A stretch of 64,000 nt of DNA, taken from contig JAGIQG010000004.1 in assembly GCA_024679065.1 (NCBI GenBank), positions 31,310,001 through 31,374,000 on the forward strand, given 5' to 3'. Positions 25,501-47,076 of the stretch are shown piece after piece. The position numbers were made by a program, and so were the translations under genes. This DNA comes from Sphyrna mokarran (Eukaryota). The stretch's first letter is position 1. Each line of letters opens with the position of its first letter. Below the pieces are notes generated by a model. The model was given only the letters and a program-made list of their open reading frames with translations. It was not told the DNA's origin and did no database searches.

Positions 25501-28500
25501 TTGACATTTGCAATAGGTTCACCTGGACATGAATCTGTCCTTGGGGGGGGGGGGGGGGGGGGGGGTTGTGTGTGTGTGTGTGTGTGTGTCTCTCTCTGGA
25601 GAGTGCAAAGGTAAATATAGCTCTGGGCAACAGGAACAGTGCTCTGGCAATAGCCTCTGGCATTGCCTTTTGACACTGGCTGGCACAGCCAGGTTTGCAA
25701 GATGCCAACTTGACAGTGCTAGCCTGGTGGGTACTGGTTCTGACTTGGGGGAGGTGGTGGGGAGATGATTTGAAAGAGGCCAATGATCGGGGGTCGGAAG
25801 CAGTGATCTGGGAGTGGGGAGACATGTCAACTTTGATCAGCGCTGGGGAATGGAACCCCTGAAATCTCTGTGGTGGGGGGAGATTTATTCAAGTTATGAT
25901 CTGGGCACCCTTTAAAGATGGTACTCTGTGCAACCAGGCTTTGCCGGTATGTTGAGGTCCCATCCTCCTGTATGACGGTGTGATCTTTTTTTGGCAGTGT
26001 TGTAAGATCTGGAGAGAAAAACAACTAGTTTCTCTGGAGATAAACGTGCTGGTTTTCTCAGCGGAAACAACACTTTATCATTGTTTGGTAAAATTTCACC
26101 CAGGGTTTATTTTATCTGTACCAGGGTTTAAATTGTCCTTCCATCCATCAGTATTAAAAAAGTTCCAGAGCAAAAAATCCAAATTATTAATGATACCGAA
26201 ACCTTAAACACAGAGGTGCCTATTCATTACGTAGAGGAGATTTTCTGTGACAAATCACATTTACCTTCAGGGAGGTTGGTTATTTGGATTTCTTCACTGA
26301 TGGTCTCAAATGAAGCAATTGGTAGGTTTTCATGGAGTAGATTAATAAATGGTCTGTCATCTTTGTCAACGTAGGATTCCAGCAGTGTTGTTATAAACTT
26401 CCTTAAACCAGGATAAAGATCTTCAGTGTCCTGCAACACCTTGAGAAACTCCGCACATGACTGCTGACCTCTGTGGCTCATCATGTCGAGAAGGGTTCGC
26501 CCTTTATCGACGTCTGGTTTCTCTTTTATTACGTCATGGTCGTCTTCAGAGATTATTCTCTTACTCATTAAAAGCTTTAGGAGTGGAAGTATGTTGGGAC
26601 TGATGTAATTCACCACAATTCGACGGCCTTCTTCGATTGCATGGATTGCCCAGTCTGAGCGCTTCATTTGTGGTGGAAAATACTTAGTACTGTCACAAAC
26701 TCCTGCTAAGAATGATAAGAAATCACTTAAAATCAAAAGTGACTATCGAACGAAACTGTCTAAAAGATTTAAAATAAGCAAAAAAAATGGCTTAATTCAA
26801 CCTCTGTAGCGTTTTGCAATAGTTATGTCTGGCAAATTTATATCATGGTTTGAAATAAGAATGATTTTCTCTTTTTTTAACAGGCTAAGTTATGCATATT
26901 TCAAAACAACTTTTTCCCAGCAATCTTAAAAGAGTAGTATTTTTGTTGATTTTATCAATTCCTACTTGTCTTTGTCCTAATGAACATTTCTCGCACTGAC
27001 TGAACTCGCTGCTAAGAGCTAAAATGCTAAATGTTAGTGCAGATCAGAGAAGGAATGTCCGTTCTTTTTGAGAGTCACCTCCAATTTTGAGTAATGTAAT
27101 GAGTATGGTAACGCCAAAAGTTGGTCATATCCACATATGTTAGTTTAGGACTTTTTACACTCGGGTCCGGAACTATTACTGGATTCTCCAGGACAGAGTA
27201 GGTGAAACCCAAGGAAATATTGTGTTAATCATTAATAAATAGCCACTTGTGCCATGTCTCCAAGTATTCCACAGCAGGAAAATTGGAGAACCCTGTATAT
27301 CGGTGCCATAACTGGTAGCGGGAGAAGAAATAATATTTTACCCTTTTCTTCTACCATGTTTTTTTCCTCTTCCTTTTTAGTAGTATCGACAATGTTTTTT
27401 TTTATTAATTTGTACATGGTGGACAGGCTTTGGGGAGTTAGGAGATGAGTTACTTGCCATAGTATTCCTAGCCTCTGACCTGTTCTTGTAGCCATTGTGT
27501 TAGTGTGGTGAGTTCAGTTGAATTTTTGGTCAATGCTAACCCTAAGGAGATTGACAGTGGGAGATTCAGTGGTGGTAACACCATTGAAAGTCATGGATCA
27601 ATGGTTAGAGCTTCTCTTCCTGGTGATGGTCACTGCCTGGCATTTGGGTGGCACCAATGTTGTCTGTTGCTCTATTTCTTATGTATGAGCAGATAGTGTG
27701 GTAGCTGAGACTGATCCTTCCTATCTGACATTCACATGTGCTGACTTTCAGCAAGGATTTTAAGACAACTCAGATGCTGAGGTTGAATTTGGTACACCCA
27801 TCCCATCCTATCATAGATAAATTAATTCTGAAGACAACAGGGATTGAACCTGAAATCCACTTAGTCAAGAAGTAAACATTTACAGGATATATTTTGTTGT
27901 TTGGAAAGTTAAAGAGAAAGCTTCCAGAATACCTACATTATTTGGGTAATATGGTCCCATTGCACTGTAGACATCTAGAATTTCAGGTATACAATGCACA
28001 ATTCCAGCAGAATTGGCTACAAACAGAAGACCCTGCCTTTCACAGGATGCCATATGTTTATTAGTAAAAGGATAGTGAGAGCAAAAGCCGCTGTCTTAAA
28101 AATTTCGTCACTAATGTAACAGTAACTCACCTTTCTTTCCTAAAGCAACTACTTTTGAAACGCTTTGTTTTATAGCATTGTGCTGAACTTCAAAAGAATA
28201 TACCAGCTTCTTGTTTGTGGCTTCTGTAGTTCTGATAGTAAGCTGAGATATTAAGCTGTATGCACCATTCCCTTGGTGTTCTTTCAAAGTGACGGCAGTG
28301 TCATGTTCTGCTTCCAGTGTTTTATCTGGTTCCTGCTCATTCTGATAATCTTCTACTCTACTGTATTCACGTTGCTTTATAGATGATAAGGTGCTGTTCC
28401 ATTTACTGATGAGAGCTCTCTGGGATTTCCCTTCTTCTTTTCTGTACCAAGAAACACTGATAGCTTTTGGTTTGAACCAGAGAACTGCACAAACCAGAGA

Positions 28501-31500
28501 GAAGGGATCATCCATATGGAGGTGGTTTAATTTAACAATATCTGTCACAGTGGGAGAGACTGAAAAATAAAGAGAAACCGAATCACCCAGTTACGCAGCT
28601 TTCAGGACTCAACATTGAGTTCAACAACTTTAGACTGTGGCCTTTCTTTTTCTTCTTAATTTCCTTTTATGTTTCAAACATCTTTTGTTCCTTTGTAAAA
28701 ACCCTCTCTTCTCCGGGCCAATGGTCACTTTTTCTTAAGTTCTGCTGCATTGTTTTTGCAATCTTTCCCAACTCCTAATAATTAATAGCACAGAAATGGG
28801 TTGGAGAAATTGATGGATTTGAAGACTGCTAAATCCCCAGGAGCTGATAATCTACATTCCACACTACATAGAGAAGTGGCCCTAGAAATAGTGGATGCAT
28901 TGGTGGTCATCTTCCAAGATTCTACACACTCTAGACCAGTTCCTATGGAGGGTAGCTAATGGAAACCCTTTATTAAGAATAAGAGGTAGAGAGAAAACAA
29001 GGAATAACAGGGCCAATCAACAGTGAATAAATGCTAGAGTCAATTTTAAAAGATTTACTAACAGTGGATAACAGTGGAGGATTAGACAGAGTCAGCACAG
29101 ATTGACAAAAAGGAAATCATGCTTGACAGATCTACTGGAATTATTTGAGGATGTAAATAGTTGAGTTGATAAAGAGGAGACAGTGAAGGTGGTTTATTTG
29201 GACTTTCAGAAAGTTTTCAACAAAATCCCACATAAGAGATTAGAATGTAAAATTAAATGTCCCCACCATTTTAAATTTATTTTCATGTTCCACAATCTTT
29301 GAATAGAAGCCAGATGATGCCCTGTGACTGATCTGATTGAGTGAGTCAATCCCCATGGACAGAAGCTAATTTCTCTCCCAAAATGCTGACACGCGGGTTG
29401 AGAAAACTGATGGGTTCAAGAACCTGATGCTTGGATAATTTCCTGGTTCAACCCGACATCTCAGCTGTCTCACTATCAGGTGCCAGTTCTAAATGTAGTT
29501 GGACAGGAGGCTGAGCATTTCCTGGAGGTGGGAGCTGCCTGCCTGGCACCTACAGAAAAGGCAAGCAGCAGCCATGCTAAGGCCTGCCATTGTCTTGCTG
29601 CTAAAATGCAGGTAGTACCTCAGAGGGCGAGCAAAATAATTAATTCAAAGTAAGTGGTCCTGTAGCCAAAATGAAGGTAACAAGCACGATCCTGTGCAAG
29701 ATCCCTACACAAATATTTTTCACTCAACGTAAACAGATTTTCAGGTCTCCCCACGTTGAACTCGACAGTTGTGTGCTTACACGCAGTAGATCCTTCAGGA
29801 TTGTGAAATTCCCTTTTGAAAAGTTTCGGCCAACACTCTTTGAAATTTAGAAGAGTGAGGGGAGATCAAATTGAGGTAAGATGTTAAAAGGTACGAATAA
29901 GGTAGACGTGGAGTGGATGCTTCCTTTTATGGGGCATTCTAGGATGAGTGATCATAGTCTGTAGATAAGGAGTAGAAAATTTAAAGGAGAGTTGAGGAGA
30001 AACTAGTTCTCCAGAAGGGTTGAGAATCTGTGGAATTCAGTACCCCAAAGTGGTCTGGATGCTGGAACAGTGAGTAAATTTAAGGAAGAGCTAGACAGAT
30101 CTTTAATTGGTAATGGGTTGAAGGGTTATAGGGATAAGGTAGGAAAATGGGGATGAAGAGCACATCAGCTATGATTAAATGATGGAGCGAACTCAATGGG
30201 CCAAATGGCCTAAATTTTGCTCCTATATCTTATGAACTTATGAAAAAGTGCAGCTGATACAGCACAAGGTTAATAGCCTGAAATACTCTACCTTACGACA
30301 ACTCACAACCACATAAAAGGGCCATAAATGGAGTCTTGCCAAAGTTACCAGTATTTCAAAAACAAGCTGACAAAAGAGTGATTATTCACCTTTTCTTTTA
30401 CTGCTGTACAAAATAATTGTTGCAAAGCAAACAGCTGCAGTGATCATAGAAGTTAGGAGAAAAGTTAGGAGAAACGTTCTTGATCTTGTCCTGGATCCTA
30501 TACAAATGCAAAACCAGAGAGGCGTTATTGGTTATTCACTGCTCTTTCTCCATGCTTGTTACAGAAAACAAAAGTTTTAAATTTACTTACAGGGCAGCAT
30601 CATACCTGAATAACTGAAAGAACCTTTCAATGACAAATGATGCAGTAACTCCTGTTTCATTCACAATGAAGTGAAACTGCCAACACATTAGCTGGAAAAT
30701 CAAGTGGTCTCTATCCTAAAGAATAATCTTTGACATTTTAAAACAAAGCTATATTTCACTACTTCATAAATGGAATTTTTTCAACTAGAATGAAAATGTG
30801 AAACTTGTGACAATTCAATGTGTGCATAACAATTCAGATTGTGAGGTCACGATGAAAATAATTATTTATTGATCCAGTATTCTACCAAGTCCCATTCTGC
30901 ACCCAGGATATGGTACACCTGCCAGTCCAGGCACTCATTTAGATCATAGTACTTTTTTTCCTTTTTTATCTCAAGGATCTTGCATTTAGGCAAAATATTA
31001 AAAGTTGGATTTGGTGATAAAAATAAAAGTCAGATATTGACAATTAGCTCTACAATATGTTATAAAAGAACAACTTTCAGAACATTTTTAAAACCTTACA
31101 TTTATACACTTACACCTAGACATACAACAGATTGGCTTCCTATGGTTTGTGTGTAAGATCCAAGACCAAAGCCTGGGACAGTCAAAGAGGCACCGAAGAG
31201 AAATGCGCCCATTTATCATGGAAAATCATGGAAGATAAGTCATTATAATGCTGATATTCTTTGATAAAGTCACTCAAATACATACAAAGCAATGGGGACC
31301 TGGAAAAATTAGAAGGCCAAGTTGTGTGGCAATGACACAAACCATTCTAAGTAGATTAATAGAACATAGAACATTACAGCACAGAACAGGCCCTTCGGCC
31401 TTCGATGTTGCGCCGACCAATATAAAAAGCAATGCCCCTCCAAACTAAACCATTCCCTTCTCTTCCATATACTTATCAACTAACCTCTTAAACGCCACCA

Positions 31501-34500
31501 AACTTGGCGCATCTACAACTGCTGCAGGCAGGGCATTCCACTCCCGAACCACCCTTTGGGTAAAGAACCTACCTCTGATATCCGTCCTATAACTATCACC
31601 CCTTAATTTAAAGCTGTGTCCCCTCGTGCTAGCTTTTTCCATCCTAGGAAAAAGGCTATCACTGTCCACCCTATCTAAACCTCTAATCATCTTATATGTT
31701 TCGATTAGGTCCCCTCTTAGCCGCCTCCTTTCTAACGAAAACAACCTCAAATCCCTCAGCCTCTCTTCATAAGACCTGCCCTCCATACCAGGCAACATCC
31801 TGGTAAACCTCCTCTGTACCCTCTCCAATGCCTCCACATCTTTCTTATAATGTGGGGACCAGAACTGCACCAGATTCTTCCACTAAGCTGGAGACTGAAG
31901 TCTGTCTAATAGCTTCCGAGAAAACAGACTTACGATGGCAGGTGCTGGAAGATTTGAAATGGAAACAATACTCTATATTTCTAGGGTCCAGTACCTAAGA
32001 TGACTCATGATAATCATATATAATGTGACATATGATATGTGCCAATGTTGTGGTCAGGAAGATAATGGCAACGTACTTGTACATTTTAATGTCCATTTCT
32101 CACTTCACCATTCTGAGCAATATTCGCTCTTGCTAAGCATCGAGCATAATCTGTATTTGTTAACTGTCTATTGGCAAAATAACAATACTCTCCTTGAGGT
32201 GGAGGAATTAATCAGATCACTCTGGGATCAAGTTGTTTCCACGATGATAACAAGTGATTGTAGAAATTCAGAACTAATGAGTGAAATGGATTCCAAGCAC
32301 TAAGAGAAATGATTCCTCATTTAGCCTGGCTCACTAACTGATCCTAGTTAGGGTAGACTTGTCACTGAAAGCTGGAAATGTTCCCACTGGTTTGTAGAAT
32401 TATCTGGAGTCAATGACCTGAATTTTGCCACCTTGTCTGCTTTTGGGAAGTGGAGCACGTGAGAGGCAGATAATAGGAAAATCTGTTGACCTCGGGCTGG
32501 ATTTTACGGTTTCAGGACGAACAAGGTTGTAAAATCCCGCCCATTGAGTGTACTTTAACTGCAAGGCACTTCTACATACACTTGAGGGGGGGAGTAATAA
32601 AATCCTGGCTCTGTTGACCTAAGTTTTCTAGACTTAGGGGGCGAGTTGTGTGTGAATTCTGTATTGAAATTCTATGTGCCATTTCACGCAGATATCCTCA
32701 GACATAGTCACAAATTTTTGAGTCAATCAATCAATCAAGAAGTAGATTATTTGATTGAATACTCACTCAGGCTAATTAAAAAAGGACTTTTGTTCCTAAT
32801 GGTAAAATAATTGTTCCCTTGAAAATTTTGACATGGAATACAACAGAATCCATTTAGAAATTCTACATCATTCAGATATAATATTGAAGTTGCTTTGTTG
32901 TCTTTTCATTTCTAATAAATTCATATGGAAATTTATCAGTATTTCTACTCCTATGAACTGTGAAAAGCATTCACAAATACATTTCAAAAAACAGGTGTGC
33001 AAAGAACAATTTGAAATTTAAATATGGCAAGGCTCATTGTGAAGAATAGGGGTGGCATTTTAAGGCATGCTTGTCCCAAAACCATAAATTCCTGCTTGAG
33101 GTCAACGGACTTTTACGTTGTCTGCCCTCTCGCTCCAATTCCTGTGGTGCGAGTGATGATAAAATTTCAGCCTAATGTCTACATGTGTAGAAACTAAATA
33201 ACATCCTTAATTTGTAATGATCCATTTGTGTGGCTGATTCAAGCCAAGATTTTCTAAATGAAAGTAAAGTGTAATTCATACTACATTAGAATTGAAAAAT
33301 GAAATATTTCTCACCATTTTCTAGATACTATCCTCCTTCATTGTTACTCACCCTTGATGGTCAAATGAACAACTCTTTGTAAAGGTGTCCTTAAAGCTTC
33401 ATGACTAATTTCGCAGACATAAGAAGCTCCATCATCTGCCTGGGTGCCTTTGACAATCAGGAATGAAAGCAGATCAAACGTTCCATCTTGATTTTGTTGA
33501 AGTTTTCCTGCAATGGCTCTTGATGTGAGGTTAACTTGGTTTTCGCTATCTTTTGAGCCACGTTTAAACCAAGAGATAGAGTGAGCTTCTGGGTAAAAAC
33601 GTTTCATCTCACAAATGATTGTTTTATCTTCCCCAAGTTCAATGTCAATGTTTATGGTGTTCACCGAAACTGTAGGAGGTACTACCAAGAAAAAAAGGAA
33701 TAAAAATAAATTTTATGTTTCTTTCATTAAATGTCTCCTTAAAAATGCAACGTGGTCATGTTAGACATGCATTGAAATGGGTGCAGGCAATTTAACCCCT
33801 CGAGCTTGTTTTGCCATTTAATGAGCTTATGGTTGATCTGAGACCCACCTGAGTCCCATATGCATTAATAATTCTGCCCAACAAAAATTAGGTTATAATA
33901 AAAAAATGCTGGATAAGTGAAGTAGGTTGGCGAAGTCACAATGACTCGAAACGTTAACTCTGTTTCTTTCTCCAGATGCGGCATTTTCTTTACATATTTC
34001 AGAATTCCAAAATTCACAGTATTTTTCTTTTAATATAAAAATTAAGCTATCTCAGGTTTAAATTTACAATTGTAATTTTAATTACTTTCTTCAAAAGTGA
34101 TTTCCGAACCTATTTTGTTTATTTATTAGTGTCACATGTAGGCTTACATTAACATTACAATGAAGTTTCTGTGAAAATTCCCCAGTTGCCACGCTCCAGT
34201 ACCTGCTTGGATACACTGAGGGGGAATTTAGTAAGGTCAATGCGCCTAACCAGCATGTGTTTTGGATTGTGAGGGGAAACCGGAGCACCTGGAGGAAATC
34301 CATGCAGACACGGGGAAAATGTGCAGACTCCGCACAGGCAGTGACCCAAGTTGGGAATTGAACCTGGGTCCCTGGCACTGTGAGGCAGCAGTGCTAACCA
34401 CTGTACCCCTTTGCCACCCATGCTAAATTCTCCCTCATTACAGTGGTAAGCACTGCTGCCTCACAGTGCCAAGGATCTGTGTTCAATTCCCGGCTTGGAT

Positions 34501-37500
34501 TACTGGCTGTGCGGAGTCTGCACATGAAGAATGCTTCCCTATTTCACTTTTGTAAGGTCTGGCTCTAATTTTAGACAATGCCCCTCCACTTCCCTTTTTC
34601 CATGTTGTATAATCCTCAACCAGTGAAGTTAACTCCCCCTATCTAAATCCCTTTAATACAGTGTCTTGGAATTCACAAATTTCTGTTGGAAAAGAATATT
34701 TTGACCTATTGACATGTCCACTCAGAATGAAACTGCAACTGCTCAGTTAAATGGAAGTGTCTATAATTAACTATCAGATGGAGCAGATGTTTTGCTGAGG
34801 ATAAACAACCTTACCCCAGCTCACACCGCTGTTTTGGTTTTGTTTTTACTCCCAAAAAGATGGAAGTCATTTTCCACAGATACTGTTACCATTGTAACAG
34901 TGTTACATAGCCAATTAAAAGACCTATTCTGTGAGTCTGAAATATACAATTTCTGCAGTTCTATTTGTACCCATAACTATTCCTAGTATTTCTACAATTC
35001 TACTTATAACCATAACTATTCCTAGTGTTCCTACAATTCTATCTATATCCATACCTATTCCTAGTATTCCTACAACTCTCTCTGTATCTAAGAATTCCAA
35101 GTATTCCTACAATTCTATCTATATCTATAACTATCTCTAGTACAGATTAATTCATGGACAGAAATTAAATTGGTTTAAAGAACAAACAAAGCTGGCTGCA
35201 TTTTGTGGTAGCAGCAAAGGAAGTGTTCGCCTCAGATCTCGAAGAAAGCTGCCTACAAGGGCTAAACAATACCTGTGGCACCCTTTTCCCCTTTCTCAAA
35301 GTCAAACCGATGCTGTCGCTAAGTCAAGGGGTCTCAAAATGTCCAACAGCAATAACACCATTAACCAGGGTTTGCAGCCATTCACACTGAAGTACTCTTG
35401 TAGACGGCAAATGAGGAAGCAAAAACCATTAAATCCCTTCAATTTCTAATTTTAACTTTCTCTTACAGGTAGAGAGATAAATAAATGGGATATTCATTTA
35501 ATACAGAAGCTGAAATATCATAAACAAATCTTAATTTTGAAAGAAATATGTAGAATTTTATTTCATATTAGAGAAATCTAACTTTAAACAAATATTAAAT
35601 TACTGGGTAAGGGCCAGTGAAGGAGTTTAGCAGCAATGACAAATCCCCTGAACTCCGGTAAGCACCCTTCCTACCACCCCACTCCCCCCACTAATCCACT
35701 TAGTGTGCCTTTAAAAACCCAAGTACACCACATTCAGAAAGGATTTTACTGTGAAACCAATAATAGCACGGTGGCACAGTGATTAGCACCGTTGCCTCAT
35801 ACCACCAGTGACAGGATTTTATTTCCAATCACTGCTTGTATGGAGTTTGCACGTTCTTGCTGTGGGTTTCTGCAGATGTTCTGGTTTCCTCTCACAGTCC
35901 GAAAGACGTGCTAGTCAGATGCACTAGGCATGCTAAATTCTCCCTCAGTGTACCCAAACAGGCACTGGAGTATGACCACTAGGGGATTTTCACAGTAACT
36001 TCATTGCAGAGTTAATGTAAGCATACTTGGAACACTTAATGAAAACTTCCATTCTTAAACTAAGTTTTTTATTATTCAATTTTACTGCATTCTGGGGTTA
36101 CTGCATATCCTTACAGCAACTTCTGGATATCTACATTTAATTGTGCATGTATGGACTTCAGATGAGTAATTATGGTGGATACTAACATAGTTCATTGTCA
36201 TAACGACCAACAATTTAGTGCCTTTAATATCCTAAAGTACTTCACAGGAGCATTATAACACAAAATACTAAAACTGACCCAGACCTATGCCAGTTCATAT
36301 CAGGTTAGATAATAACTATATGATCAGAGGTAGGTTTTAAGAAGTATAGATGTTTTGAAGATGGAAATTGAGGTGGTGAAGTGGGAGGTGTAAGGAGGGA
36401 ATTCTAGAGCTTAAACATGATGCAACTAAAGGCATGGCCATCAATGATGGAGCATTTAAAATCAAGGTTGCTTAAGAGACAGTCTAGATATCTGAAAGGG
36501 CAACGGGGCAGGAGAAGGTTACAAAGATAGGAAGGGCTGAGACCATGGAGAGATTTGAAAACAAGAACAAAAATTTTAAAATCAAAATGTTGTTTTAACT
36601 GGAACCAGAACAAGTCAGTAAGCACAGGGGTGATAGATTAACTGGATTTGCTGAGTTAATATATAGACAGCAGATAGGTTTACACAAGGTAGAATATGGA
36701 AGGCCACCAGTAAAACATTGGAATAGTTAGGTTCAGCAGTAACAAAGGCATGAATGAGATTTTTTTTAAAAAGCAGAAATTAAGCCGTGATGGGGCAAAA
36801 CCAGGAAATACAATGGACGTGGCAATAGGCAGTCTTTGTGACTGTGCAAATCTCAGGGCCAAATTCCAGGAAGGTGAATGGGACACCAATTGCAGGGCAG
36901 GTAAAAAAATGATTAGAGTGTCCTCCAAATGGCACAACATTAGTTACCCCAATGTTCTGAGGTCACTCCCATATAAACTAACAAACCTCATGGGAAATGC
37001 AGATACGGTTCATTTAAAAGAATGAATGATTTAAACAAAAGAAATGGAAATTACATTTATCTAGCGTTTTTAAAAATGACTGGGCATCTCAAAGCATTTT
37101 ACAGCTAATTAATTTCCTTTAAAACTGTAGCTCCTGCTGAAATGTTGAAAGCAACTTTAACACAGCAAACTCCCACAAATAATAAAACTTCACCTATTTT
37201 TCATGACATAAAGCTGAAATTGAAATTTTCCCATCAAAAATTGTAATTAGATCTATTCAATTTGAGTCTATTTTGGATAACATATATGAATGTAAGAATT
37301 AGAAGCTGGAGTAGGCCACTTGACCCCTCGGGCCTTCTTCATCATTCAATAAGATCATGGCTGATCTGATTGTGACCTCAACTTCACATTCCCACCTACT
37401 CCTCAAATCCTTTGACTCCCTCTGCCTTAAAAGACATTCAATGACCCTGTTCCCCCTGTGGCCAAATGGGCCATCTAAAATGGCAATTTGTAAAGCACTC

Positions 37501-40500
37501 TGGGACAACTGGGCAAGAACTAAAATGATAGGTTGCAGCCTAAAAGACAGAGATAAATAGGCTGTAACCCTGGCAAGTGAATACACAGGATATGGGTCAT
37601 CTCCAGGACAAAAGAGACTTTCTGTTCCAACTGAGTTGTTTACCAGGCATAAGGGCACTGTAACTCCTTATTTGGGAGGGAAGTGTGAACTCCATGTGCC
37701 CCCAGCACCTACAGACATGGTCACTGGGGACACACCCAGAAATTGGTGTGGCAGCAGCCAATTGGACTTTATCGATCAGGGTGATCAGCCTGATCGATTG
37801 ATTGGCAATGGCCAAAAGCAGCGCGAAACCTAACGGGATATGAAGAGAGTTGCACAACCAAGAATCTCTCTCTCTTTCTCTCTGACCCCACAAACAAGCT
37901 ACAACAACGGTAACCGTCGCAATGACCAGCACGAACAGAGCCACCACATCCGTAAAAGAAGGAAGGCCCGAGTCAGAATGCCAAATCAGAACCAATGATC
38001 AGATTACGCAGAAGAGACCAAGACCAATTCACAGATAAAGGCCAATACCTGTTTGGTATTTGCCTGTCATGCAAAGTTAAGTCAAGGTCTTGTACTGGAC
38101 TTGAACTCTAGTATTTTTTGTAAAGATATCTTATTGTTGGTTGAGTGGGCGAGTATTGATTCTGTGTCTTAAATAAATATTGGTTATACTAACAAGACGT
38201 CTACTCGCAGTTATTTGTTCACCGTATAAGGATTAAAACAGACTGTGGAGCAGGTACAACACTCCTCACACCATGTATTCCGTGTAGCAACCTTCGATGT
38301 GGCACCTTGTCAAATGCCTCTCATATCACAGAGTTCATCCAAATAGATGTTTCTATGCAAAAATATACCTTCACAACTAAGATAAAAGTTTAAGTTAATT
38401 TAACCAGATTGTGGAAGTGCTTTTCTCTCAGAAATTTCTAGACATTTTTATTTTAGCTCATTTAGGTGAAGGCAAATGATTTGCCATTTCACAGTCAACT
38501 GAGTTCAATTGAGATATTTGCATCTCTGCACTTTTCTCATCAGCTGGAATTCTTACTTTTCATTAACATCTCCTGTGGTTACAGTGAACAAAAACTCCAA
38601 GCACAGTTCTTAAAGGATCATATTTCAGGCATTATTCCTCACATACCTGTTATTGCCAGAGTAACTGTCCCCGTTCCTTTATCAGAAAATACTGAAACTG
38701 TGCAGGAGTATGATCCAACATCTTGAATTGTAACATTTTTTAGAAGTAAAGAAGCATTTGCTTTGCTTATTTCATTTATGGAGAGACTCGATCCTGGTCT
38801 ATAGCTTTCATATTCTCCAAACTCGAACAAATAAACTGCTTTGTTATCAGTGCCCACTCTGTGGTTCCATTCAATCACAATGTAGTTCAAATTCAATTCA
38901 ACTATACGTGTAAATAGGCAGCTCAACAGGATATCTTCACCAATTGTGGCATTGATAACTGGGATGACCATCACCTCAAGGGAAGCTGCATTAAAAAATA
39001 CACAGCAAAAGTTCAAAACATGGTTCATCAATAATTCATTATAATCATTCTTCACAAAAATTCTGTGGAAAGAAAAATGGTGAACAGAGGCAAAATATAA
39101 CAGGGGTATGTAAGACATCACTCAGCCACTTTTAAATATCTATTTCCTTCATTACAATAGTAGTGGCTATTCTTTAAAAAAGTACTTCATTAGCTGGAAA
39201 GCGTTTTAATATATCCATTGGTCATTGAAATGCCATTTAACTACAAGTCTATCTTTTCGTTTCCCAGCTTGCAGCCAGCAACTGGGGGGGGGGGGGGGGG
39301 GGGGGGTGGGGGGGGGGGGCTGTGTGTGGGGGAGTGTGTGTGTGTGTGTGTGTGTGTGGTGGTGGAGGAAATGATATGGGGAAGCAGGAGGAATGACCAT
39401 GACTGGGATGGGGGAGATTGATGACTGTGGGGTGGGGGGAAATAGGTCTGTGATTGGGTGGGGAGGGGGAGAAAGCTTTGTTTATGAAAGGTAAATGAGG
39501 TTTCTGATCAGATTCTGGGGATTAAAAAGCCATGGATTGGGATGGCTGGGATCAGAATATCAGGACCTAAGGGCCAGTGTCCTTGCAGACTGCATCATTA
39601 CAGAAGTAGTCAGCGCTTTAAACAAAATAAGGGGCAGGTGATTCTGGAAAGAAGCTATTTAAGCATATAAAGGAAAAGGAAATGGTAACTTTACAAGGCA
39701 GTTGTTTAGGTAATGATACCGAGAGTATGACAGGAAGGGACAGAGTGTACAAACATAAAAATACAGCAGCGAATAGGATAAAAAAGGGAGAAAAATGTTA
39801 ATAAAGCAAAGTGAATGGTTTTATACTTAAATACACATAGTATTCAACATAAAATAAATGAATTGATGGCAAACACAGTCCAAAGATGTGTGGGTTAGGT
39901 TGATTGGCCATGCTAAAATTGCCCTTAGTGTCCTGAGATGCATAGGTCAAAGGGATTAGTGGGTAAATATGTAGGGATATGGGGGGGTATGGCCTGGGTG
40001 GGATTGTGATCATTGCAGATTCGATGGACCAAATGGCCTATTTCTGAGCTGTAGGGTTTCTATGATTCTATAATGAACGTGTATGATCTTATAGCCATTA
40101 TAGAGATGGGGTTTCAAGGAGATGAAAACTGGGAACTAAATAATTTGGTATATGAGACTATTTGTAAGGATAGGCAGGAAGGAAAGGGTAGTTGGGTAGC
40201 TTTGTAAGTATGAGATGGAATAAGTATGAAAGGAAGAAATGATCTTCAGTCAGAAGATGTAGAATCCATGTGGGTAGAGGTAAGAAATAACAAATGGGAA
40301 GAACTTATCAGTGGGAGTAGTCTGTAGGCCTCCTAACAGTGGCTAAACTGTAGGACAGAGAATAAATCAGCAGATAATGGGGGTATGAAGCACTTTAATC
40401 ATGAGTGATTTTTATCCTCATATAGATTGGGAAAATTAAATTGGTAGAGGTAGCCATAAAGAAGAATTTATAGAATGTTTTTGAGATAGTTTCCTAGAAT

Positions 40501-43500
40501 AATATATTGCGGATCCAATCAGAGATCAGGCTATTTTAGACCTGGTAATGTGTAATGAGCAGGTTCAATAACCAATTCCAGAGTAAAAGATTCCTGAGGA
40601 AACAGTGACCATAACATAGTGGAATTTAGCATTCAGTTTGAGAGTGAGAAACTTGCTAAACTTATATGCTAAACTTAAATAAGAGTAATTATACAGCAAC
40701 AAGGGCAGAGATGACTGGGATAGGGGAAGGAATTCAGCAGGAAGTACGGTTAATTAGCAATGACAGATGTTTATGAAAATAGTTCATGACTCAACAAAAA
40801 CATATCTCAATCAACTTCTAGGAAGGGGATAAATCAACCATGGTTAACCCAATAAAGTTAAGGGCAGTATTAAACTGAAAGAGAAAAGCATATAATGGGA
40901 CAAAGATTAATGGTAAGGCAGAGGATGAGGCATTTTCAAAAACCGACAAAAGGAGACTGAAAAAATAATAAAAAGGGGGAAGGTGAACTAGCAAATAATA
41001 TAAAACTGGACAGCAAGAGCTTCTTTAACTATATAAAAAGAGAGGTCAAAGTAAACATAGGCTCCTTAGAAAATGAGACTGGGAAAATAATAATGGGGAG
41101 CCAGGAAATGAAAAAAAACTTTGCTTCAGTGTTCATGGTAGAAGATTCTAATAGCATTCCAAAAATTCTAAGTAATCAAGGGGTAAAAGGCTGGGGGAGG
41201 AAATAAATGCAATAACTGTCACTAGAGGAAAAGTACTTGGAAAAGTAAAGAGGCAAAAGGCCAGTAAGACCTCTGGCCTTGGTGATTGCATCCAAGGATA
41301 TTAAAAGAAGTAGCTACAGAGAAACTGGATGCACTGGTAGTGACCTTCCAACAATCCTTAAATTCTGGAAAAGTCTTAGAGGATTGAAAAACTTATCCAA
41401 AATAGGAATGAGACAAAAACAGGCAAAGACAGATATCAAGCTAATTAGCTAATTAGCATTCAGTTTGAGAGTGAGAAACTTGCTAAACTTATATGCTAAA
41501 CTTAAATAAGAGTAATTATACAGCAACAAGGGCAGAGATGACTGGGATAGGGGAAGGAATTCAGCAATAGGCTAATTAGCTTGATATCTGTCTTTGGGAA
41601 AATATTAGAATTCATTGGAAAGGATACAATAGTACAGCATATAGAAATGTATAATATAATCAAGCAGAATCAACATGGCTTCATGTAGAGGAAATCATGC
41701 CTGACAAATTTATTACAATTCTTTGAGATGGCAATATGCAAATAAGATGGAGTACATATCACCAATGGATGTAATGTAATGATACATAATTGAATTTCCA
41801 AAAAGCGCTTGAAAAGGTCTTGCACAAAAGGCTACTTAATAAGATAACAGCCCCTGGTTTTGGGTTAGAATATTAGCATGGATAGAGGATTGGCTAATTG
41901 ATAAAAGACAGTAAGTTCGGGGTTAAGATGGGTATTTTCAGTTACAGAGGATAATCTGTAACTAGTGGAGTTCTTCAAGCTTAGTGCTGGGGCATCATAA
42001 TGAATATACTATTGCCAAGTTTGCAAATGGCACAAAAATAGATGAGAAGATGATAAGAATGAAGGAAGTTAATGAGGTTAACAGTTAACTTGACATGAAA
42101 ACAAAGTATCAAACAAGTAACAAGATTAGCATGCGTCTGGAGCAATAATGAGATGTGCTATACCCAATGACAAGATTAACATAAGAACTAGGAATAGGAG
42201 TAGGCCATCAATGCTCTCGTGTCTGATTTGCCATCCAATAAGATCATGGCTAACCTTTCGTTGGACTCAGCTCCACTTACCCGCCTGCTCATCATAACCT
42301 TTAATTCCATTGCTGTTCAAAAATTTATCTATCCCAGCTTTAAAAACATTCAATGAAGTAGCCTCAACTACTTCACTGGGCAGGGAACTCAACACATTCA
42401 CAACCCTTTGTGTGAAGAAGTTCCTCCTCAACTCAGTCCTAAATCTGGTCCCCCTTGTTTTGAGGCTATGCTCCCTAATTCTAGTTTCACCTGCCAGTGG
42501 AAACAACTTCCCTTCTTCTACCTTATCTATTCCCTTCATAATCTTATACGTTTCGATAAAACCTCCCCTCATTTTTCTGAATTCCAATGAATATAGCCCC
42601 AGTCTACTCAGTCATTCCTCATAGGCCAACCCTATCAACTACAGAATCAACCTAGTGAATCTTCTCTGCACCCCCTCTAGTGCCGGTATATCTTTTCCCA
42701 AGTAAGGAGATTAAACTGTACACAGTACTCCAGATATGGCCTCACCCAAACCTTACACAGCTGCAATATGACCTTGCTGTTTTTAACCTCTATCCCTCTA
42801 GCAATGGAGGACAAAATTCTATTTGCCTTCCTAATTACCTGGTGCACCTACAAACCAACACCTTGTGATTCTTGCACAAGGACACCGAAGTCCCGTTGCA
42901 CAGCTGGGACCTGCATGTTGCAATTTTTTACCATTTAATAGAGCATTTTGCTGTTACTCTGACCACAATGGATGACCTCACATTTACCAACATTGTACTC
43001 CATCTGCTAGATCCCACCTGCTCACTTAGACTATTTATATCCCTTTGCAAACTGTCAGCATTCTCTGCACACTTTGCTCTGCCACTCATCTGCAAATTTT
43101 GACTATATTTGGTCTCCAACTCCAAATCATTTATGTAAATTGTAAATGATTGTGGTCCCAACACTGATCCCTGAAGCACATCACTAGTCACTGATCGCCA
43201 ACCAGAAAAACACCCATTTACCCCACTCTTTGCTTTCTGTTAGTTAACCAATCCTCTATCCATGCTAATACACTACCCATAACACCATGCATCTTTATCT
43301 TATGCAGCAATCTTTGGTGCAGCACTTGTCAAATGTCTTCCGAAAATCCAATTACACCACATTCACAGATTTCCCATTGTCCACTGCATATGTAATGTTC
43401 TCAAAGAATTCCACCAAATTAGTCAAACATGACCCGCCCTTCATGAAGCCATTCTGCGTCTTACCAATAATTTATATCCAGATGTCTCACTATTTCTAAC

Positions 43501-46500: not shown

Positions 46501-47076
46501 GGATGTGTGGAATTCACTATCATAGAAAGCAGTTGAGGTCAAAACGTTTGTGTGATTTCAAGAAGAAATTAGATACAGCTCTTGGGGTCTAAAGGGAACA
46601 AGTGCAACAGGTGGGGGGTGGGGGCTGGTGGAGAGACAAGGATATGGAATATAATGATCAGCCAGGGTCCTAATGAATGATAGTGCAGGCTTGAAGGGCC
46701 GGAGAGACTACTTCTGCTTCTAGTTTTCAACTAAAACTAGAAACTAAAAACTAGTTTTCAACAATACAGTCACAATCATTTGTTTTCCATCTTCTGAAGA
46801 TAATTGTTAAAACTGTTAAATCTTCAGGAAAGCAATTGTTTTGGCAATACTGCAATATACCAATTATTAGATTTATTGTATTATTAATAACTTTAGCCAG
46901 AATAATTATCCATCGTTCCCCCCTCTGTAGATTGAATCCTTAGAACGAAAGCTGAATTTAACTCGGCCAGAGGCAAATGACTGCCTTGTTTGTAGCAACA
47001 AAAGCGAAGGGCGTGTTCACTTACCTGCTACGGAAACAATGCAAAACGTCGTGAATTCTGTTAGAAAGTACCTCAT
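4443..47076 (-). CDS. Predicted 13-exon gene: type I transmembrane Ig receptor fused to an NLR (SP-IgV-IgC1-TM-intracellular Ig-CARD-NACHT-LRR), 1313 aa
   Basis: Exons 47025-47076, 38647-38985, 33352-33681, 30390-30497, 28131-28559, 26265-26702, 19408-21145, 16525-16611, 15561-15644, 14215-14298, 12081-12164, 6693-6776, 4443-4527. All introns GT-AG; first six phase 1, last six phase 2; total 3942 nt = 1314 codons with a single terminal TAA. Joining the Ig and NLR halves is inference from phases. Confidence 0.78.
5060..5400 (-). mobile_element. CR1 LINE 3' tail fragment
   Basis: atagaatcat..gaggccattcggtccatcgtgtct tail motif with a decayed ORF2 end. Confidence 0.6.
6693..6776 (-). CDS. LRR exon: RLGDNDITERGSDYFKSALGVNDTLEEL
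   Basis: 84 nt, phase 2-2; acceptor ttcttgtttgcag, donor TG|GTAAGA. Confidence 0.92.
6934..7256 (+). mobile_element. HE1/V-SINE-type tRNA-derived SINE
   Basis: ggcggcatggtggcacagtggttaacac head (A box), V core gtgggtttcctctgggtgttctggtttcc, tail gattctatgattct. Confidence 0.85.
7553..7580 (+). repeat. (GT)n microsatellite
   Basis: Direct observation. Confidence 0.9.
8130..8822 (-). mobile_element. LINE 3' fragment (CR1/L2 group)
   Basis: ORF MEYFSLAWMSAAPTVLKKLDTIQDKAIHLIG; the same family recurs at about 27410-27670. Confidence 0.75.
9478..10406. mobile_element. Non-autonomous PIF/Harbinger-type element
   Basis: Imperfect 16-bp TIRs (gggagtgattctccca ... tgggagaatcacccag) flanked on both sides by TAA (9475-9477, 10407-10409). 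Confidence 0.7.
12081..12164 (-). CDS. LRR exon: GLQFNKIGDEGAKYMAQAIKTNCSLVEL
   Basis: 84 nt, phase 2-2; acceptor tttgtcctatttcag, donor AG|GTAAGT. Confidence 0.94.
14215..14298 (-). CDS. LRR exon: GLRANTVRAKGAHLIAKALEINTTLRVL
   Basis: 84 nt, phase 2-2; acceptor ctttattttctccag, donor GG|GTATGT. Confidence 0.92.
14423..15558. mobile_element. Nested cluster: SINE (+; 14423-14555 and 15396-15558) split by a CR1 3' end (-; ~14560-15400), itself split by a V-SINE (+; ~15088-15352)
   Basis: Outer SINE resumes at atgaaaccattgtcg; CR1 sequence (..ggcctcaccaacaccctgt | aattgcaacaaaacctccc..) continues across the inner SINE. Confidence 0.7.
15561..15644 (-). CDS. LRR exon: RLKHNSIGEKGAAQIAEALKTNSSLKTL
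   Basis: 84 nt, phase 2-2, NLRC3/NOD-type LRR; ttcacag acceptor, GG|GTATGT donor. Confidence 0.93.
16525..16611 (-). CDS. LRR exon: SLEGNMLEDEGAEIIANALKSEKCRIEIL
   Basis: 87 nt, phase 2-2, ribonuclease-inhibitor-type LxxNxLxDxGxxxIxxAL; ttacag acceptor, AG|GTAAAA donor. Confidence 0.92.
17305..17830. mobile_element. Element with ~100-bp imperfect terminal inverted repeats (MITE-like), inside an old L2-like fragment
   Basis: tcttgcattcattagaacatttcgcaagaataccagta..agagtgctgattggttggcaa is mirrored by ttgccaatcaaacagcactct..tactggtattctcgcaaagtgtctgatgaatgcaaga. Confidence 0.65.
18270..18660 (-). mobile_element. Old SINE (DeuSINE-like)
   Basis: ttgcatttata..cagccaatgaagtactttt..aatgtag..ttcccac tail motif; related pieces at ~37050-37180 and ~49590-49830. 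Confidence 0.5.
19408..21145 (-). CDS. Exon 7: NACHT NTPase (FISNA-like lead-in, NBD, HD1, WHD, HD2) plus first LRRs; NLRC3/NOD-like
   Basis: Walker A GVAGIGKS, Walker B LFLFDGLDE, sensor 1 LLTSRP, EILGFS, CYVPAFC, winged-helix FFHLTHQEFFAALY; acceptor tttcctcttgtaattacag (phase 1), donor AG|GTATTA (phase 2); 1738 nt. Confidence 0.95.
22090..22465 (+). mobile_element. CR1 LINE 3' fragment
   Basis: Decayed RKDVIALEGMQRRFTRMLPG..RLGLFS..RRLRG..FFTQRV pattern. Confidence 0.85.
22473..24245 (+). mobile_element. V-SINE (head ~22473-22562, body ~23991-24245) interrupted by a ~1.4-kb nested insertion, including a Harbinger-like element with G-rich ctgatcgttgtctgg tandem units (~23050-23510)
   Basis: SINE head stops at ggtctgtgtgga and a body resumes at cactgtgtcggtgtgcagtttgcacattctccc; the insert ends ggtaaaatcaggccc. 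Confidence 0.55.
25300..25935. mobile_element. Harbinger-like non-autonomous remnant with poly-G/(GT)n/(CT)n tract at 25543-25597
   Basis: Shares ctggca/gtgcc-type motifs with the 9478-10406 element; simple repeats seen directly. Confidence 0.5.
26265..26702 (-). CDS. Exon 6: CARD (death-fold) domain plus linker
   Basis: IEEGRRIVVNYISPNILPLLKLLMSKRIISEDDHDVI...KGRTLLDMMSHRGQQSCAEFLKVLQD..LYPGL follows the CARD helical pattern (LLD...G..SC..FL..L); NAGNAG acceptor ttcTTAG/CAG, donor AAG|GTAAAT; 438 nt, phase 1-1. Confidence 0.87.
28131..28559 (-). CDS. Exon 5: atypical C1-like Ig domain C-terminal to the TM (predicted cytoplasmic)
   Basis: VSPTVTDI...LVCAVLWFKPKAISVSWY...NGAYSLISQLTI...YSFEVQH; F-strand Cys replaced by Phe; long internal insert; acceptor ttctctttatttttcag, donor AAG|GTGAGT; 429 nt, phase 1-1. 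Confidence 0.88.
28790..29260 (+). mobile_element. CR1 LINE internal fragment
   Basis: Decayed KSPG..EVALEIVDALVVIFQDS..SQH..KSCLT..VYLDFQK. Confidence 0.8.
29840..30245 (+). mobile_element. CR1 LINE 3' end
   Basis: FRRVRGD..RVENLWNS motif and tail ctcctatatcttatgaacttatg. Confidence 0.8.
30390..30497 (-). CDS. Exon 4: transmembrane exon GSRTRSRT-FLLTFLLTSMITAAVCFATIILY-SSKRK
   Basis: 23 uncharged, mostly hydrophobic residues followed by a basic KRK stop-transfer; acceptor ttttgcatttgtatag, donor AAG|GTGAAT; 108 nt, phase 1-1. Not in the ORF track. Confidence 0.82.
31360..31872 (-). mobile_element. Young 5'-truncated CR1 LINE
   Basis: Uninterrupted 141-aa ORF2 C-terminus (QFWSPHYKKDVEALERVQRRFTRMLPG..FFTQRVVREWNALP) plus a tandem atagaac tail. 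Confidence 0.92.
33352..33681 (-). CDS. Exon 3: C1-set Ig domain
   Basis: VPPTVSV...IICEMKRFYPEAHSISW...NQDGTF...YVCEISHEAL, with C1-set CxxxxFYP and YxCxxxH motifs; acceptor ttttcttggtag, donor G|GTGAGT; 330 nt, phase 1-1. Confidence 0.92.
34115..34422 (-). mobile_element. HE1/V-SINE-type SINE
   Basis: Reverse-complement head (ggcagcagtgctaaccactg), V core and tail; a second head (+) follows at ~34435-34525. Confidence 0.85.
34950..35142 (+). repeat. Minisatellite, ~39-bp unit, ~5 copies
   Basis: Unit approximately ttcctacaattctatctatatccataactattcctagta. Confidence 0.8.
35765..36040 (+). mobile_element. HE1/V-SINE-type SINE
   Basis: gcacggtggcacagtgattagcac head, V core, cacagtaacttcattgcag tail. 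Confidence 0.8.
36200..36800 (-). mobile_element. L2-clade LINE 3' fragment
   Basis: ORF LTDLFWFQLKQHFDFKIFVLVFKSLHGLSPSYL resembles the L2 ORF2 C-terminal motif (LHWLP..FK..L.FK.LHGLAP.YL). Confidence 0.75.
37448..38261 (+). mobile_element. Possible solo LTR inserted in CR1 remnants
   Basis: TGTT...AACA ends, CCAAT-rich middle, AATAAA at ~38172, CR1 pieces on both sides; no clean TSD found. Confidence 0.35.
38647..38985 (-). CDS. Exon 2: V-set Ig domain (B7/NCR3LG1/tapasin-like)
   Basis: GEDILLSC...IEW...ASLLLKNVTIQDVGSYSC with canonical C, W and DxGxYxC; N-glycosylation sequons NAT, NAS, NVT; acceptor ttttttaatgcag, donor G|GTATGT; 339 nt, phase 1-1. Confidence 0.92.
39283..39358 (+). repeat. 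Poly-G plus (GT)n simple repeat
   Basis: Direct observation. Confidence 0.9.
39600..42055 (+). mobile_element. Heavily decayed CR1 LINE (endonuclease to RT), with a SINE 3' part inserted at ~39875-40070
   Basis: Decayed YDLIAI.E, ESMWVEVRN, GVVCRPP, GNSDHNIVEF, QHGFM..KSCLTNLL, AKFA motifs. Confidence 0.85.
42180..45362 (-). mobile_element. Long decayed CR1 LINE (most of ORF2 plus tail)
   Basis: KVDKSP..MHSR.LKEMAEEIANAL, SDVLQGSVLGPQSFTIYINDL, FFTQRVVN; tail aacataagaactaggaataggagtaggcc. Confidence 0.9.
46040..46720 (+). mobile_element. CR1 LINE 3' end
   Basis: Decayed LLLLYKALVRPHLEYCVQF..RVLDVWNSL. Confidence 0.85.
47025..47076 (-). CDS. Exon 1: signal peptide MRYFLTEFTTFCIVSVA
   Basis: ATG at 47076, short hydrophobic stretch, consensus donor G|GTAAGT, phase 1 matching the IgV acceptor (..VSVA-A-SLEV). 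Not in the ORF track. Confidence 0.75.

What the first reader, a model, noticed from the sequence alone, without database searches (positions are those of the whole stretch)
28131..28559. Ig domain on the cytoplasmic side that has lost its disulfide
Seen: this C1-like exon lies after the TM exon. It keeps the B-strand Cys and C-strand Trp (LVCAVLWFKPKAISVSWY) but has YSFEVQH where the extracellular C1 has YVCEISH, plus a charged insert of roughly 30 residues. Both pre-TM domains keep both cysteines. Established: the cytosol is reducing, and cytosolic Ig folds often lack the disulfide. Inference: independent support for the topology; the domain may be a spacer, dimerisation or docking module between membrane and CARD.
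Basis: partly seen in the sequence, partly recalled or inferred. Interest (0 to 1): 0.7.

Follow-up and report, generated by a model that had tools for sequence, protein, structure and literature searches.

The report
Shark membrane NLR with cytosolic Ig
This exon encodes an antibody-like domain that lacks one of its two usual cysteines in every shark and ray compared, and it sits just behind the predicted membrane anchor of a conserved, spliced gene that fuses a B7-H6-like surface receptor to a complete NLR immune sensor, so the domain likely faces the cytosol and would act as the spacer through which an outside signal is predicted to switch on the NLR.

Summary
Confirmed. Exon 28559-28131 (minus strand) is a C1-set domain with B-strand Cys and C-strand Trp, Phe (TTT) at the F-strand Cys position, and a ~33-residue insert. 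It is exon 5 of an intact 13-exon, 1314-aa gene: signal peptide-V-C1-TM-C1*-CARD-NACHT-LRR. Single spliced contigs from three runs join C1-TM-C1*-CARD. Twelve other sharks and rays have the same protein, all with Phe.

The domain was not invented here. It aligns in register with the first post-TM domain of a wide, mostly unnamed B7-H6-like family, V-C1-TM-(C1)n, found from chimaera to turtle. In that family post-TM C1 domains lose the Cys pair far more often than pre-TM ones (74/180 vs 2/41), show no sequon enrichment, and the first one carries acidic dileucine motifs. Cytosolic placement is therefore well supported, but Cys loss is only probabilistic evidence, and it likely predates the NLR fusion.

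The larger finding is a single-pass Ig-receptor-NLR fusion, which ten literature searches did not find described. Its function is inferred, not tested.

The parts
47025..47076 (-). Exon 1, leader (predicted signal peptide, MRYFLTEF...VSVA)
   Evidence: similar hydrophobic N-terminus in the homologues
38647..38985 (-). Exon 2, IgV domain, both Cys, B7-family-like
   Evidence: Pfam V-set; best PDB sequence matches include CD276 and B7-H6
33352..33681 (-). Exon 3, extracellular IgC1 domain, both Cys
   Evidence: Pfam C1-set; best single-domain match B7-H6 C1, E 3e-13
30390..30497 (-). Exon 4, predicted single TM helix, Thr-rich, followed by SSKRK
   Evidence: included in spliced contigs
28131..28559 (-). 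Exon 5, the finding: post-TM C1-like domain (C1*), B-strand Cys kept, F-strand Cys replaced by Phe
28300..28398 (-). Approximate insert of ~33 residues between the C' and D strands, low confidence in the model, acidic
   Evidence: pLDDT <50 at residues 59-80
28192..28194 (-). TTT (Phe) at the canonical F-strand Cys position
   Evidence: invariant in 13 of 13 rows
26265..26705 (-). Exon 6, CARD plus linker, phase 1-1
   Evidence: Pfam CARD E 1e-10; junction in contigs
19408..21145 (-). Exon 7, NACHT to HD2 and first LRR; Walker A GVAGIGKS, Walker B LFLFDGLDE (labels recalled)
4443..16611 (-). Exons 8-13, LRR exons (16611-16525, 15644-15561, 14298-14215, 12164-12081, 6776-6693, 4527-4443 with stop)

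Best explanation
The exon encodes a C1-set Ig domain lacking the F-strand cysteine, likely cytosolic, that was likely inherited from a B7-H6-like receptor family and would serve as a folded juxtamembrane spacer, with a flexible acidic loop, in a predicted type I membrane NLR of sharks and rays. Shown: exon order, splicing, conservation, loss of the Cys and colinearity with the parent family. Inferred origin: the first five exons (leader, V, C1, TM, first post-TM C1) of a V-C1-TM-(C1)n gene were joined at a phase-1 intron to CARD-NACHT-LRR before sharks and rays split, replacing the rest of the C1 array. Inferred mechanism: the V domain binds a conserved counter-receptor (NKp30-like by analogy) and the receptor clusters, perhaps helped by the Thr stripe of the TM helix. 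C1* holds CARD-NACHT off the bilayer and passes on the clustering; the NACHT oligomerises and the CARDs recruit RIPK2 or caspase-1/ASC. Phe fills the core in place of a disulfide that would not form in the cytosol. The loop is likely a degenerate sorting signal.
For: Intact 13-exon frame, 1314 aa. One 4386-nt contig with 0 differences, and two contigs from other organisms, join C1-TM-C1*-CARD at canonical introns. Same architecture in 12 species. The TM exon gives the most membrane-favourable 19-mer in 13 of 13 proteins, with no second one (rough scale, values recalled). Residues 27-424 align with 38-434 of a Heterodontus V-C1-TM-(C1)n protein, 29% identity, E 1e-45, whose only PDB matches at E<1e-20 are B7-H6. 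Tree: C1* falls with post-TM domains 1-2 (98/92) and the own C1 with pre-TM domains (99/92). Parent family: Cys pair in 39/41 pre-TM vs 106/180 post-TM domains; sequons 96 vs 58 expected pre-TM, 142 vs 140 expected post-TM. First post-TM domain: long insert in 17/26, pair lost in 15 of those 17; [DE]xxxL[LI] in 7/26 vs 1.2 in shuffles. A bichir TRIM carries related C1 domains. The model folds as an Ig sandwich, top match B7-H6 C1 (Z 10.9, rmsd 2.2, 97 aligned; tied with other C-type domains). C1* has 64% mean identity against 75-85% for V, C1, CARD, NACHT and LRR.
Against: No protein-level data on topology, ligand or signalling. The TM is weaker than the parent-family median (-1.4 vs -3.1) and its N-side flank is basic (+3/+4). 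The AU test did not reject a private duplication of the own C1 (p 0.058), and the C1* branch is long. The family counts are not phylogenetically independent, and the dileucine motif was spotted in the same sequences it was tested on. The window's own loop has no canonical dileucine; a looser pattern matches at the homologous place in 4 of 13 rows. Sequons do not discriminate inside this protein: the CARD-LRR part has 8-15. The CARD partner is unresolved (ICEBERG E 5e-7, NOD1 E 2e-4). Mean pLDDT is only 67.7.
Confidence: 0.52

Rival explanations
1. C1* is an active dimerisation or docking module: it pairs through its ABED sheet like CH3 or CH1-CL, or binds the cytosolic C1 arrays of the B7-H6-like paralogues or an adaptor, and so sets the off or on state of the NLR.
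For: C1-set domains commonly pair (established knowledge). 29 columns are invariant over sharks and rays, among them W27, F28, K31, R39, E41, K52, W53. At least seven V-domain hits mark a cluster of parent-family genes in the same genome.
Against: It is the least conserved folded domain of the protein, and most invariant residues are ordinary C1 core positions.
Confidence: 0.16
2. Integrated decoy: the whole B7-H6-like N-terminal half is bait. Pathogen proteins that cleave, ubiquitinate or remove B7-H6-like receptors hit this copy, and damage at C1* or its loop releases the NLR, as with integrated domains of plant NLRs.
For: The N-terminal 424 residues copy a multigene immune family. The loop is exposed and predicted to be disordered. 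Integrated decoys in plant NLRs and viral targeting of human B7-H6 are recalled, not tested.
Against: The gene is single copy and V is as conserved as CARD and NACHT (76% vs 75-79%), with no sign of an arms race at protein level.
Confidence: 0.14
3. C1* is a passive relic carried along in the fusion because it was the exon after the TM exon; it has no job beyond being tolerated.
For: Insert and Cys loss are shared with the parent family; lowest conservation; the sorting motif looks decayed.
Against: The exon is phase 1-1 and could be lost in frame, yet it is kept in 14 of 14 protein records, while the equally symmetrical CARD exon is skipped in two annotated isoforms. Core identity is 61-70%.
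Confidence: 0.12
4. C1* is luminal or extracellular, or the whole protein is soluble, because the Thr-rich segment is not a stop-transfer anchor or is skipped; the Cys loss would then say nothing about location.
For: Moderate hydrophobicity and a basic N-flank. An extracellular C1 can lose a Cys (Narcine; 2 of 41). Contigs drop rare splice forms, and 21 joints were not displayed.
Against: No second TM between C1* and CARD-NACHT, so the ATPase would be secreted. The TM exon is in every record and in the spliced contigs. The homologous segment in the parent family is strongly hydrophobic.
Confidence: 0.06

Closest known systems
B7-H6 (NCR3LG1), ligand of NKp30
   Same: V-C1-TM layout; best single-domain PDB match of the extracellular C1, top structural match of C1*, only strong PDB match of the parent family.
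   Different: Human B7-H6 has no cytosolic C1 or NLR module (recalled). The V domain scores higher against CD276 than B7-H6. Orthology and NKp30 binding are not shown.
V-C1-TM-(C1)n B7-H6-like proteins of non-mammalian jawed vertebrates (mostly 'uncharacterized' in RefSeq)
   Same: Colinear V, C1, TM and first post-TM C1 with a long insert and usually a lost Cys pair; same exon order in a paralogue of this genome.
   Different: They continue with further C1 domains (up to about 13 post-TM); here the array is cut after the first and replaced by CARD-NACHT-LRR. Their usual substitution is V/L/I, here Phe.
CARD-NACHT-LRR NLRs (NOD1 architecture; NLRP3-like NACHT; RefSeq label 'NLRC3-like')
   Same: CARD, NACHT with intact Walker motifs, HD2, RI-type single-exon LRRs.
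   Different: Signal peptide, Ig ectodomain, TM and C1* lie upstream. Next NLR relatives are 26-35% identical and none of the 106 listed carries an Ig family. Not shown to be NOD1 or NLRC3.
Anthozoan TM-containing NLRs (PMC5094078, passages read)
   Same: NLR with N-terminal membrane segments.
   Different: They have 3-5 TM segments; the paper calls them anthozoan-specific and other metazoan NLRs cytoplasmic. Here there is one TM and an Ig ectodomain.
IL-1R (Ig-TM-TIR) and butyrophilins (V-C-TM-B30.2), recalled
   Same: Ig ectodomain joined across one TM to an innate signalling or sensing module.
   Different: The cytosolic part here is a full nucleotide-switch NLR behind an Ig spacer.

Membership tests
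Ig C1-set domain | Profile match and C-type beta-sandwich fold | tested here: met
   Pfam PF07654 over its cut-off; Ig sandwich, Z 10.9 to B7-H6 C1
Ig C1-set domain | B-strand Cys and C-strand Trp | tested here: met
   C23 and W37 invariant in 13 of 13 rows
Ig C1-set domain | Canonical B-F disulfide | tested here: not met
   Phe at the F position in 13 of 13 rows; one Cys in the window's domain
Ig C1-set domain | Extracellular or luminal location | not testable with these tools
   Inferred to be cytosolic from exon order and family statistics
V-C1-TM-(C1)n B7-H6-like family | Colinear V, C1, TM, first post-TM C1 with insert | tested here: met
   (E 1e-45)
V-C1-TM-(C1)n B7-H6-like family | Array of several post-TM C1 domains | tested here: not met
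   One only, then CARD-NACHT-LRR
V-C1-TM-(C1)n B7-H6-like family | C1* descends from post-TM domains, not from the own extracellular C1 | tested here: inconclusive
   Tree support 98/92, but AU p 0.058
B7-H6 (NCR3LG1) orthologue | Best sequence match is B7-H6 | tested here: inconclusive
   Yes for C1 and for the parent protein; V is closer to CD276
B7-H6 (NCR3LG1) orthologue | Synteny with KCNJ11 (human neighbour, recalled) | tested here: inconclusive
   No IRK match listed on the window's contig; nearest to the parent cluster is ~10 Mb away
B7-H6 (NCR3LG1) orthologue | Binds NKp30 | not testable with these tools
   needs a binding assay
NLR (NACHT-LRR) | NACHT with Walker A/B, HD2, LRR and an effector CARD | tested here: met
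NLR (NACHT-LRR) | Soluble cytosolic protein with no signal peptide or TM | tested here: not met
   Leader and TM exons in the spliced gene; membrane insertion itself is predicted
NOD1 or NLRC3 orthologue | Phylogenetic placement with NOD1 or NLRC3 | not tested
   No NACHT tree was built; best PDB match is NLRP3 at E 3e-41, next database relatives 26-35% identical

The most novel reading that the evidence does not exclude
Sharks and rays have a cell-surface receptor wired directly to an NLR: a B7-H6-like ectodomain triggers, across the membrane and through a disulfide-free cytosolic C1 domain, the assembly of a CARD-NACHT-LRR oligomer. This would be an outside-in vertebrate NLR, built from a family that keeps C1-set domains in the cytosol.
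Probability: 0.45. Interest if true: 0.9.

Novelty: new variant of a known kind. Interest (0 to 1): 0.74.

Why it matters
Vertebrate NLRs are described as soluble intracellular sensors, and C1-set domains as secretory-pathway domains of MHC, Ig, TCR and B7-H6 (established knowledge). This gene appears to break both rules in one conserved, spliced, single-copy protein. It gives a testable system in which NLR activation could be triggered from outside by clustering, links the B7/NKp30 axis to NLR signalling in the oldest living lineage with adaptive immunity, and shows where the module came from: a wide, barely named family with cytosolic C1 arrays, also borrowed by a TRIM. A natural Cys-to-Phe C1 domain kept across elasmobranchs is also a model of a disulfide-free constant domain. 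The Cys loss alone is a modest observation; its value lies in what it leads to.

Tried and rejected
Private substitution: rejected.

Second TM after C1*: none found.

Two separate genes (Ig receptor and NLR): rejected. The TM exon has no stop before its donor, and contigs join all four exons.

TM skipping: no such joint among the 15 joints shown, with 21 not shown, so absence is not proven. No RNA holder was on record as RNA; the runs are taken as transcript data only because the contigs lack the introns.

Caspase site at EHD: dropped, because D86 starts a strand and the next residue is bulky in the homologues. YxxPhi in the loop occurs in 6 of 13 rows and is not enriched in the parent family; left as a lead.

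The Atlas gave only generic C1-set clusters. Foldseek gave generic Ig matches. KCNJ synteny was inconclusive.

Orthologues in chimaera or bony vertebrates: none among the hits. These searches are word- or cluster-limited and do not show absence.

Literature: ten searches found no description of this fusion or of the cytosolic C1 arrays. Three papers most likely to bear on it (PMC3709836, PMC6761025, PMC4594805) are not held and were not seen.
Full report
The observation. The stretch 28559-28131 on the minus strand is a 429-nt exon with AG/GT ends in phase 1-1. Its 142 full codons read SPTVTDIV...LVCAVLWFKPKAISVSWY...YSFEVQH...ALGKK and pass Pfam's C1-set cut-off. The B-strand Cys (C23) and C-strand Trp (W37) are present, and the F-strand position is TTT, Phe. 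The Cys-to-F spacing is 99 residues against 66 in the upstream C1. An AlphaFold2 model on 13 rows (mean pLDDT 67.7) gives a beta-sandwich with residues 59-80 under pLDDT 50. Its best structural match is the B7-H6 C1 domain (Z 10.9, rmsd 2.2, 97 aligned), tied within 1 Z with many other Ig domains.

The gene. tblastn with shark homologues placed all exons in the window. Thirteen exons from 47076 to 4443 join with canonical sites into 1314 codons and one stop: leader, V, C1, TM, C1*, CARD, NACHT and six LRR exons. The exon has one match in the 2.77-Gb genome. The NACHT has 82 matches, the others at most 41% identical. Laying four coded runs on 26150-33750 gave one 4386-nt contig with no differences that runs C1-TM-C1*-CARD across three canonical introns. 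Two runs of other organisms gave the same path in one contig each; the fourth covered C1-TM and C1*-CARD in separate contigs. The runs are not on record as RNA, contigs drop rare forms, and 21 joints were not displayed.

Conservation. Nine proteins from 8 shark species came back for the exon. A profile of them gave 16 hits: 14 with this architecture from 12 species, 4 of them rays, and 2 unrelated NACHT proteins. All are auto-labelled NLRC3-like, NOD1-like or uncharacterized. F122 is invariant in 13 of 13 rows. All 14 records have the TM; two isoforms skip the CARD exon; Narcine's extracellular C1 lacks its B-strand Cys. The NST sequon is in 6 of 13 rows and 4 rows have no sequon in C1*. Mean pairwise identity is V 76, C1 75, TM 59, C1* 64 (insert 56), CARD 75, NACHT 79, LRR 85%. 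With the CARD-NACHT region as query, identity falls from 72% or more to 26-35%, and none of the other 106 listed proteins carries an Ig family.

Where the domain comes from. A phmmer search of 1.84 billion representatives gave 60 hits. Of the 59 outside the family, 36 have one internal TM with C1 domains on both sides. Thirty hits were looked up and come from chimaera, sharks, ray, skate, bichir, reedfish, coelacanth, lungfish, frogs, newt, caecilian, turtle and lizard; most are 'uncharacterized'. A Heterodontus member aligns with the white-shark Ig-NLR from V to the end of C1* in one piece (29%, E 1e-45), and its DDQQKLI lies opposite EQDKTLY. Its only PDB matches under 1e-20 are three B7-H6 entries. 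This genome has a cluster of such genes on another contig, one with the same exon order and Val at the F position of its first post-TM domain. In a tree of 80 C1 domains (126 columns, bootstrap not fully settled; 14 of the 36 parent proteins, first four post-TM domains, 5 of the 12 Ig-NLRs), C1* groups with post-TM domains 1-2 (98/92) and the own C1 with pre-TM domains (99/92). Forcing C1* with the own C1 costs 22.7 log units but is not rejected (p-AU 0.058).

Is the post-TM side cytosolic? In the 36 proteins, both Cys are kept in 39 of 41 pre-TM and 106 of 180 post-TM domains (Fisher p 2e-6, rows not independent). Sequons number 96 against 58 expected before the TM and 142 against 140 after it, and the C-side flanks are mostly basic. 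Of 26 scored first post-TM domains, 17 have the long insert and 15 of these have lost the pair. Their loops hold [DE]xxxL[LI] in 7 of 26 (shuffles 1.2) and [DE]xxxL[LIMV] in 13 of 26 (2.0), reached by 0 of 2000 shuffles. I noticed this motif in the same data; its role as a cytosolic sorting signal is recalled knowledge. A bichir TRIM (RING, B-box, coiled coil) ends in three C1 domains; two of them pair with post-TM domains of a reedfish protein at starred support, and all three keep both Cys. So cytosolic placement is well supported for the family, while Cys loss is neither necessary nor exclusive. In the Ig-NLR itself the TM is the best membrane segment in 13 of 13 proteins but weaker than the family median, has a basic N-flank and shows Thr at about every fourth position.

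Mechanism. Shown: architecture, splicing, conservation, and intact Walker-type motifs (labels recalled). Inferred: a type I receptor whose conserved V domain binds a host counter-receptor, clusters, and nucleates NACHT oligomerisation. C1* is the spacer and the CARD recruits RIPK2 or caspase-1/ASC; the CARD scores best against ICEBERG and NOD1, which does not decide between them. The rivals are an active dimer or docking module, an integrated decoy, a passive relic, and non-cytosolic topology. Dimerisation remains open.

Literature. Ten searches found no description of the fusion or of the arrays. PMC8455134 (whale shark genome): I read section 7 part 1, section 38, passages, and searched 12 of 24 supplements; it treats NLRs as intracellular and its main text has no matching mention of Ig or TM NLRs. 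PMC5094078: passages on anthozoan multi-TM NLRs. PMC12227049, PMC10751288, PMC12863176 and PMC13262535: passages only, nothing on this. PMC3709836, PMC6761025 and PMC4594805, on B7-H6 and VJ-C1 genes of cold-blooded vertebrates, were not available and may describe the arrays. One earlier AI note of this scan describes a skate member of the parent family; I saw it after my own analysis, and it is a lead, not support.

Verdict. This is a new variant of known kinds: a B7-H6-like receptor head with an inherited, likely cytosolic C1 domain, fused to a full NLR and kept across sharks and rays. Interest 0.74.

Noticed in passing
G000:C1437:96.83-97.28 Mb: Cluster of V-C1-TM-(C1)n B7-H6-like genes in the own genome (at least seven V-domain hits); one gene's exon order was checked.
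   Followed up: partly
P0078 (Polypterus, Erpetoichthys): TRIM protein whose C-terminal part is three C1-set domains related to post-TM domains of the B7-H6-like family, in the place where TRIMs often have B30.2.
   Followed up: partly
window 26705-26265: The CARD exon has a tandem acceptor (TAG CAG); contigs map to the first, database models read as the second. The exon is skipped in annotated isoforms of Pristiophorus and Narcine.
   Followed up: no
P0004 (Mustelus): The record has a 33-residue partial duplication of the start of C1* after the TM, including intron-like sequence; a real tandem duplication or a gene-model error.
   Followed up: no
P0016/P0017 (Narcine): The extracellular C1 has Ser at the B-strand Cys.
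   Followed up: no
window 30497-30390: TM helix with Thr at about every fourth residue and a conserved Cys, preceded by a basic R-x-R-S stretch; possible oligomerisation face.
   Followed up: no
own genome, C446, C894, C971, C1005, C1060 and others: Large NLR expansion: 82 NACHT matches at E<=1e-10.
   Followed up: no
window 31445-31882, 42267-42611, 260-562, 34091-34460: Fragments that look like CR1-type LINE ends and a SINE in introns (labels recalled); the first is heavily covered in the runs.
   Followed up: no
window 34959-35142: 39-bp tandem repeat, 4.8 copies, in the V-C1 intron.
   Followed up: no
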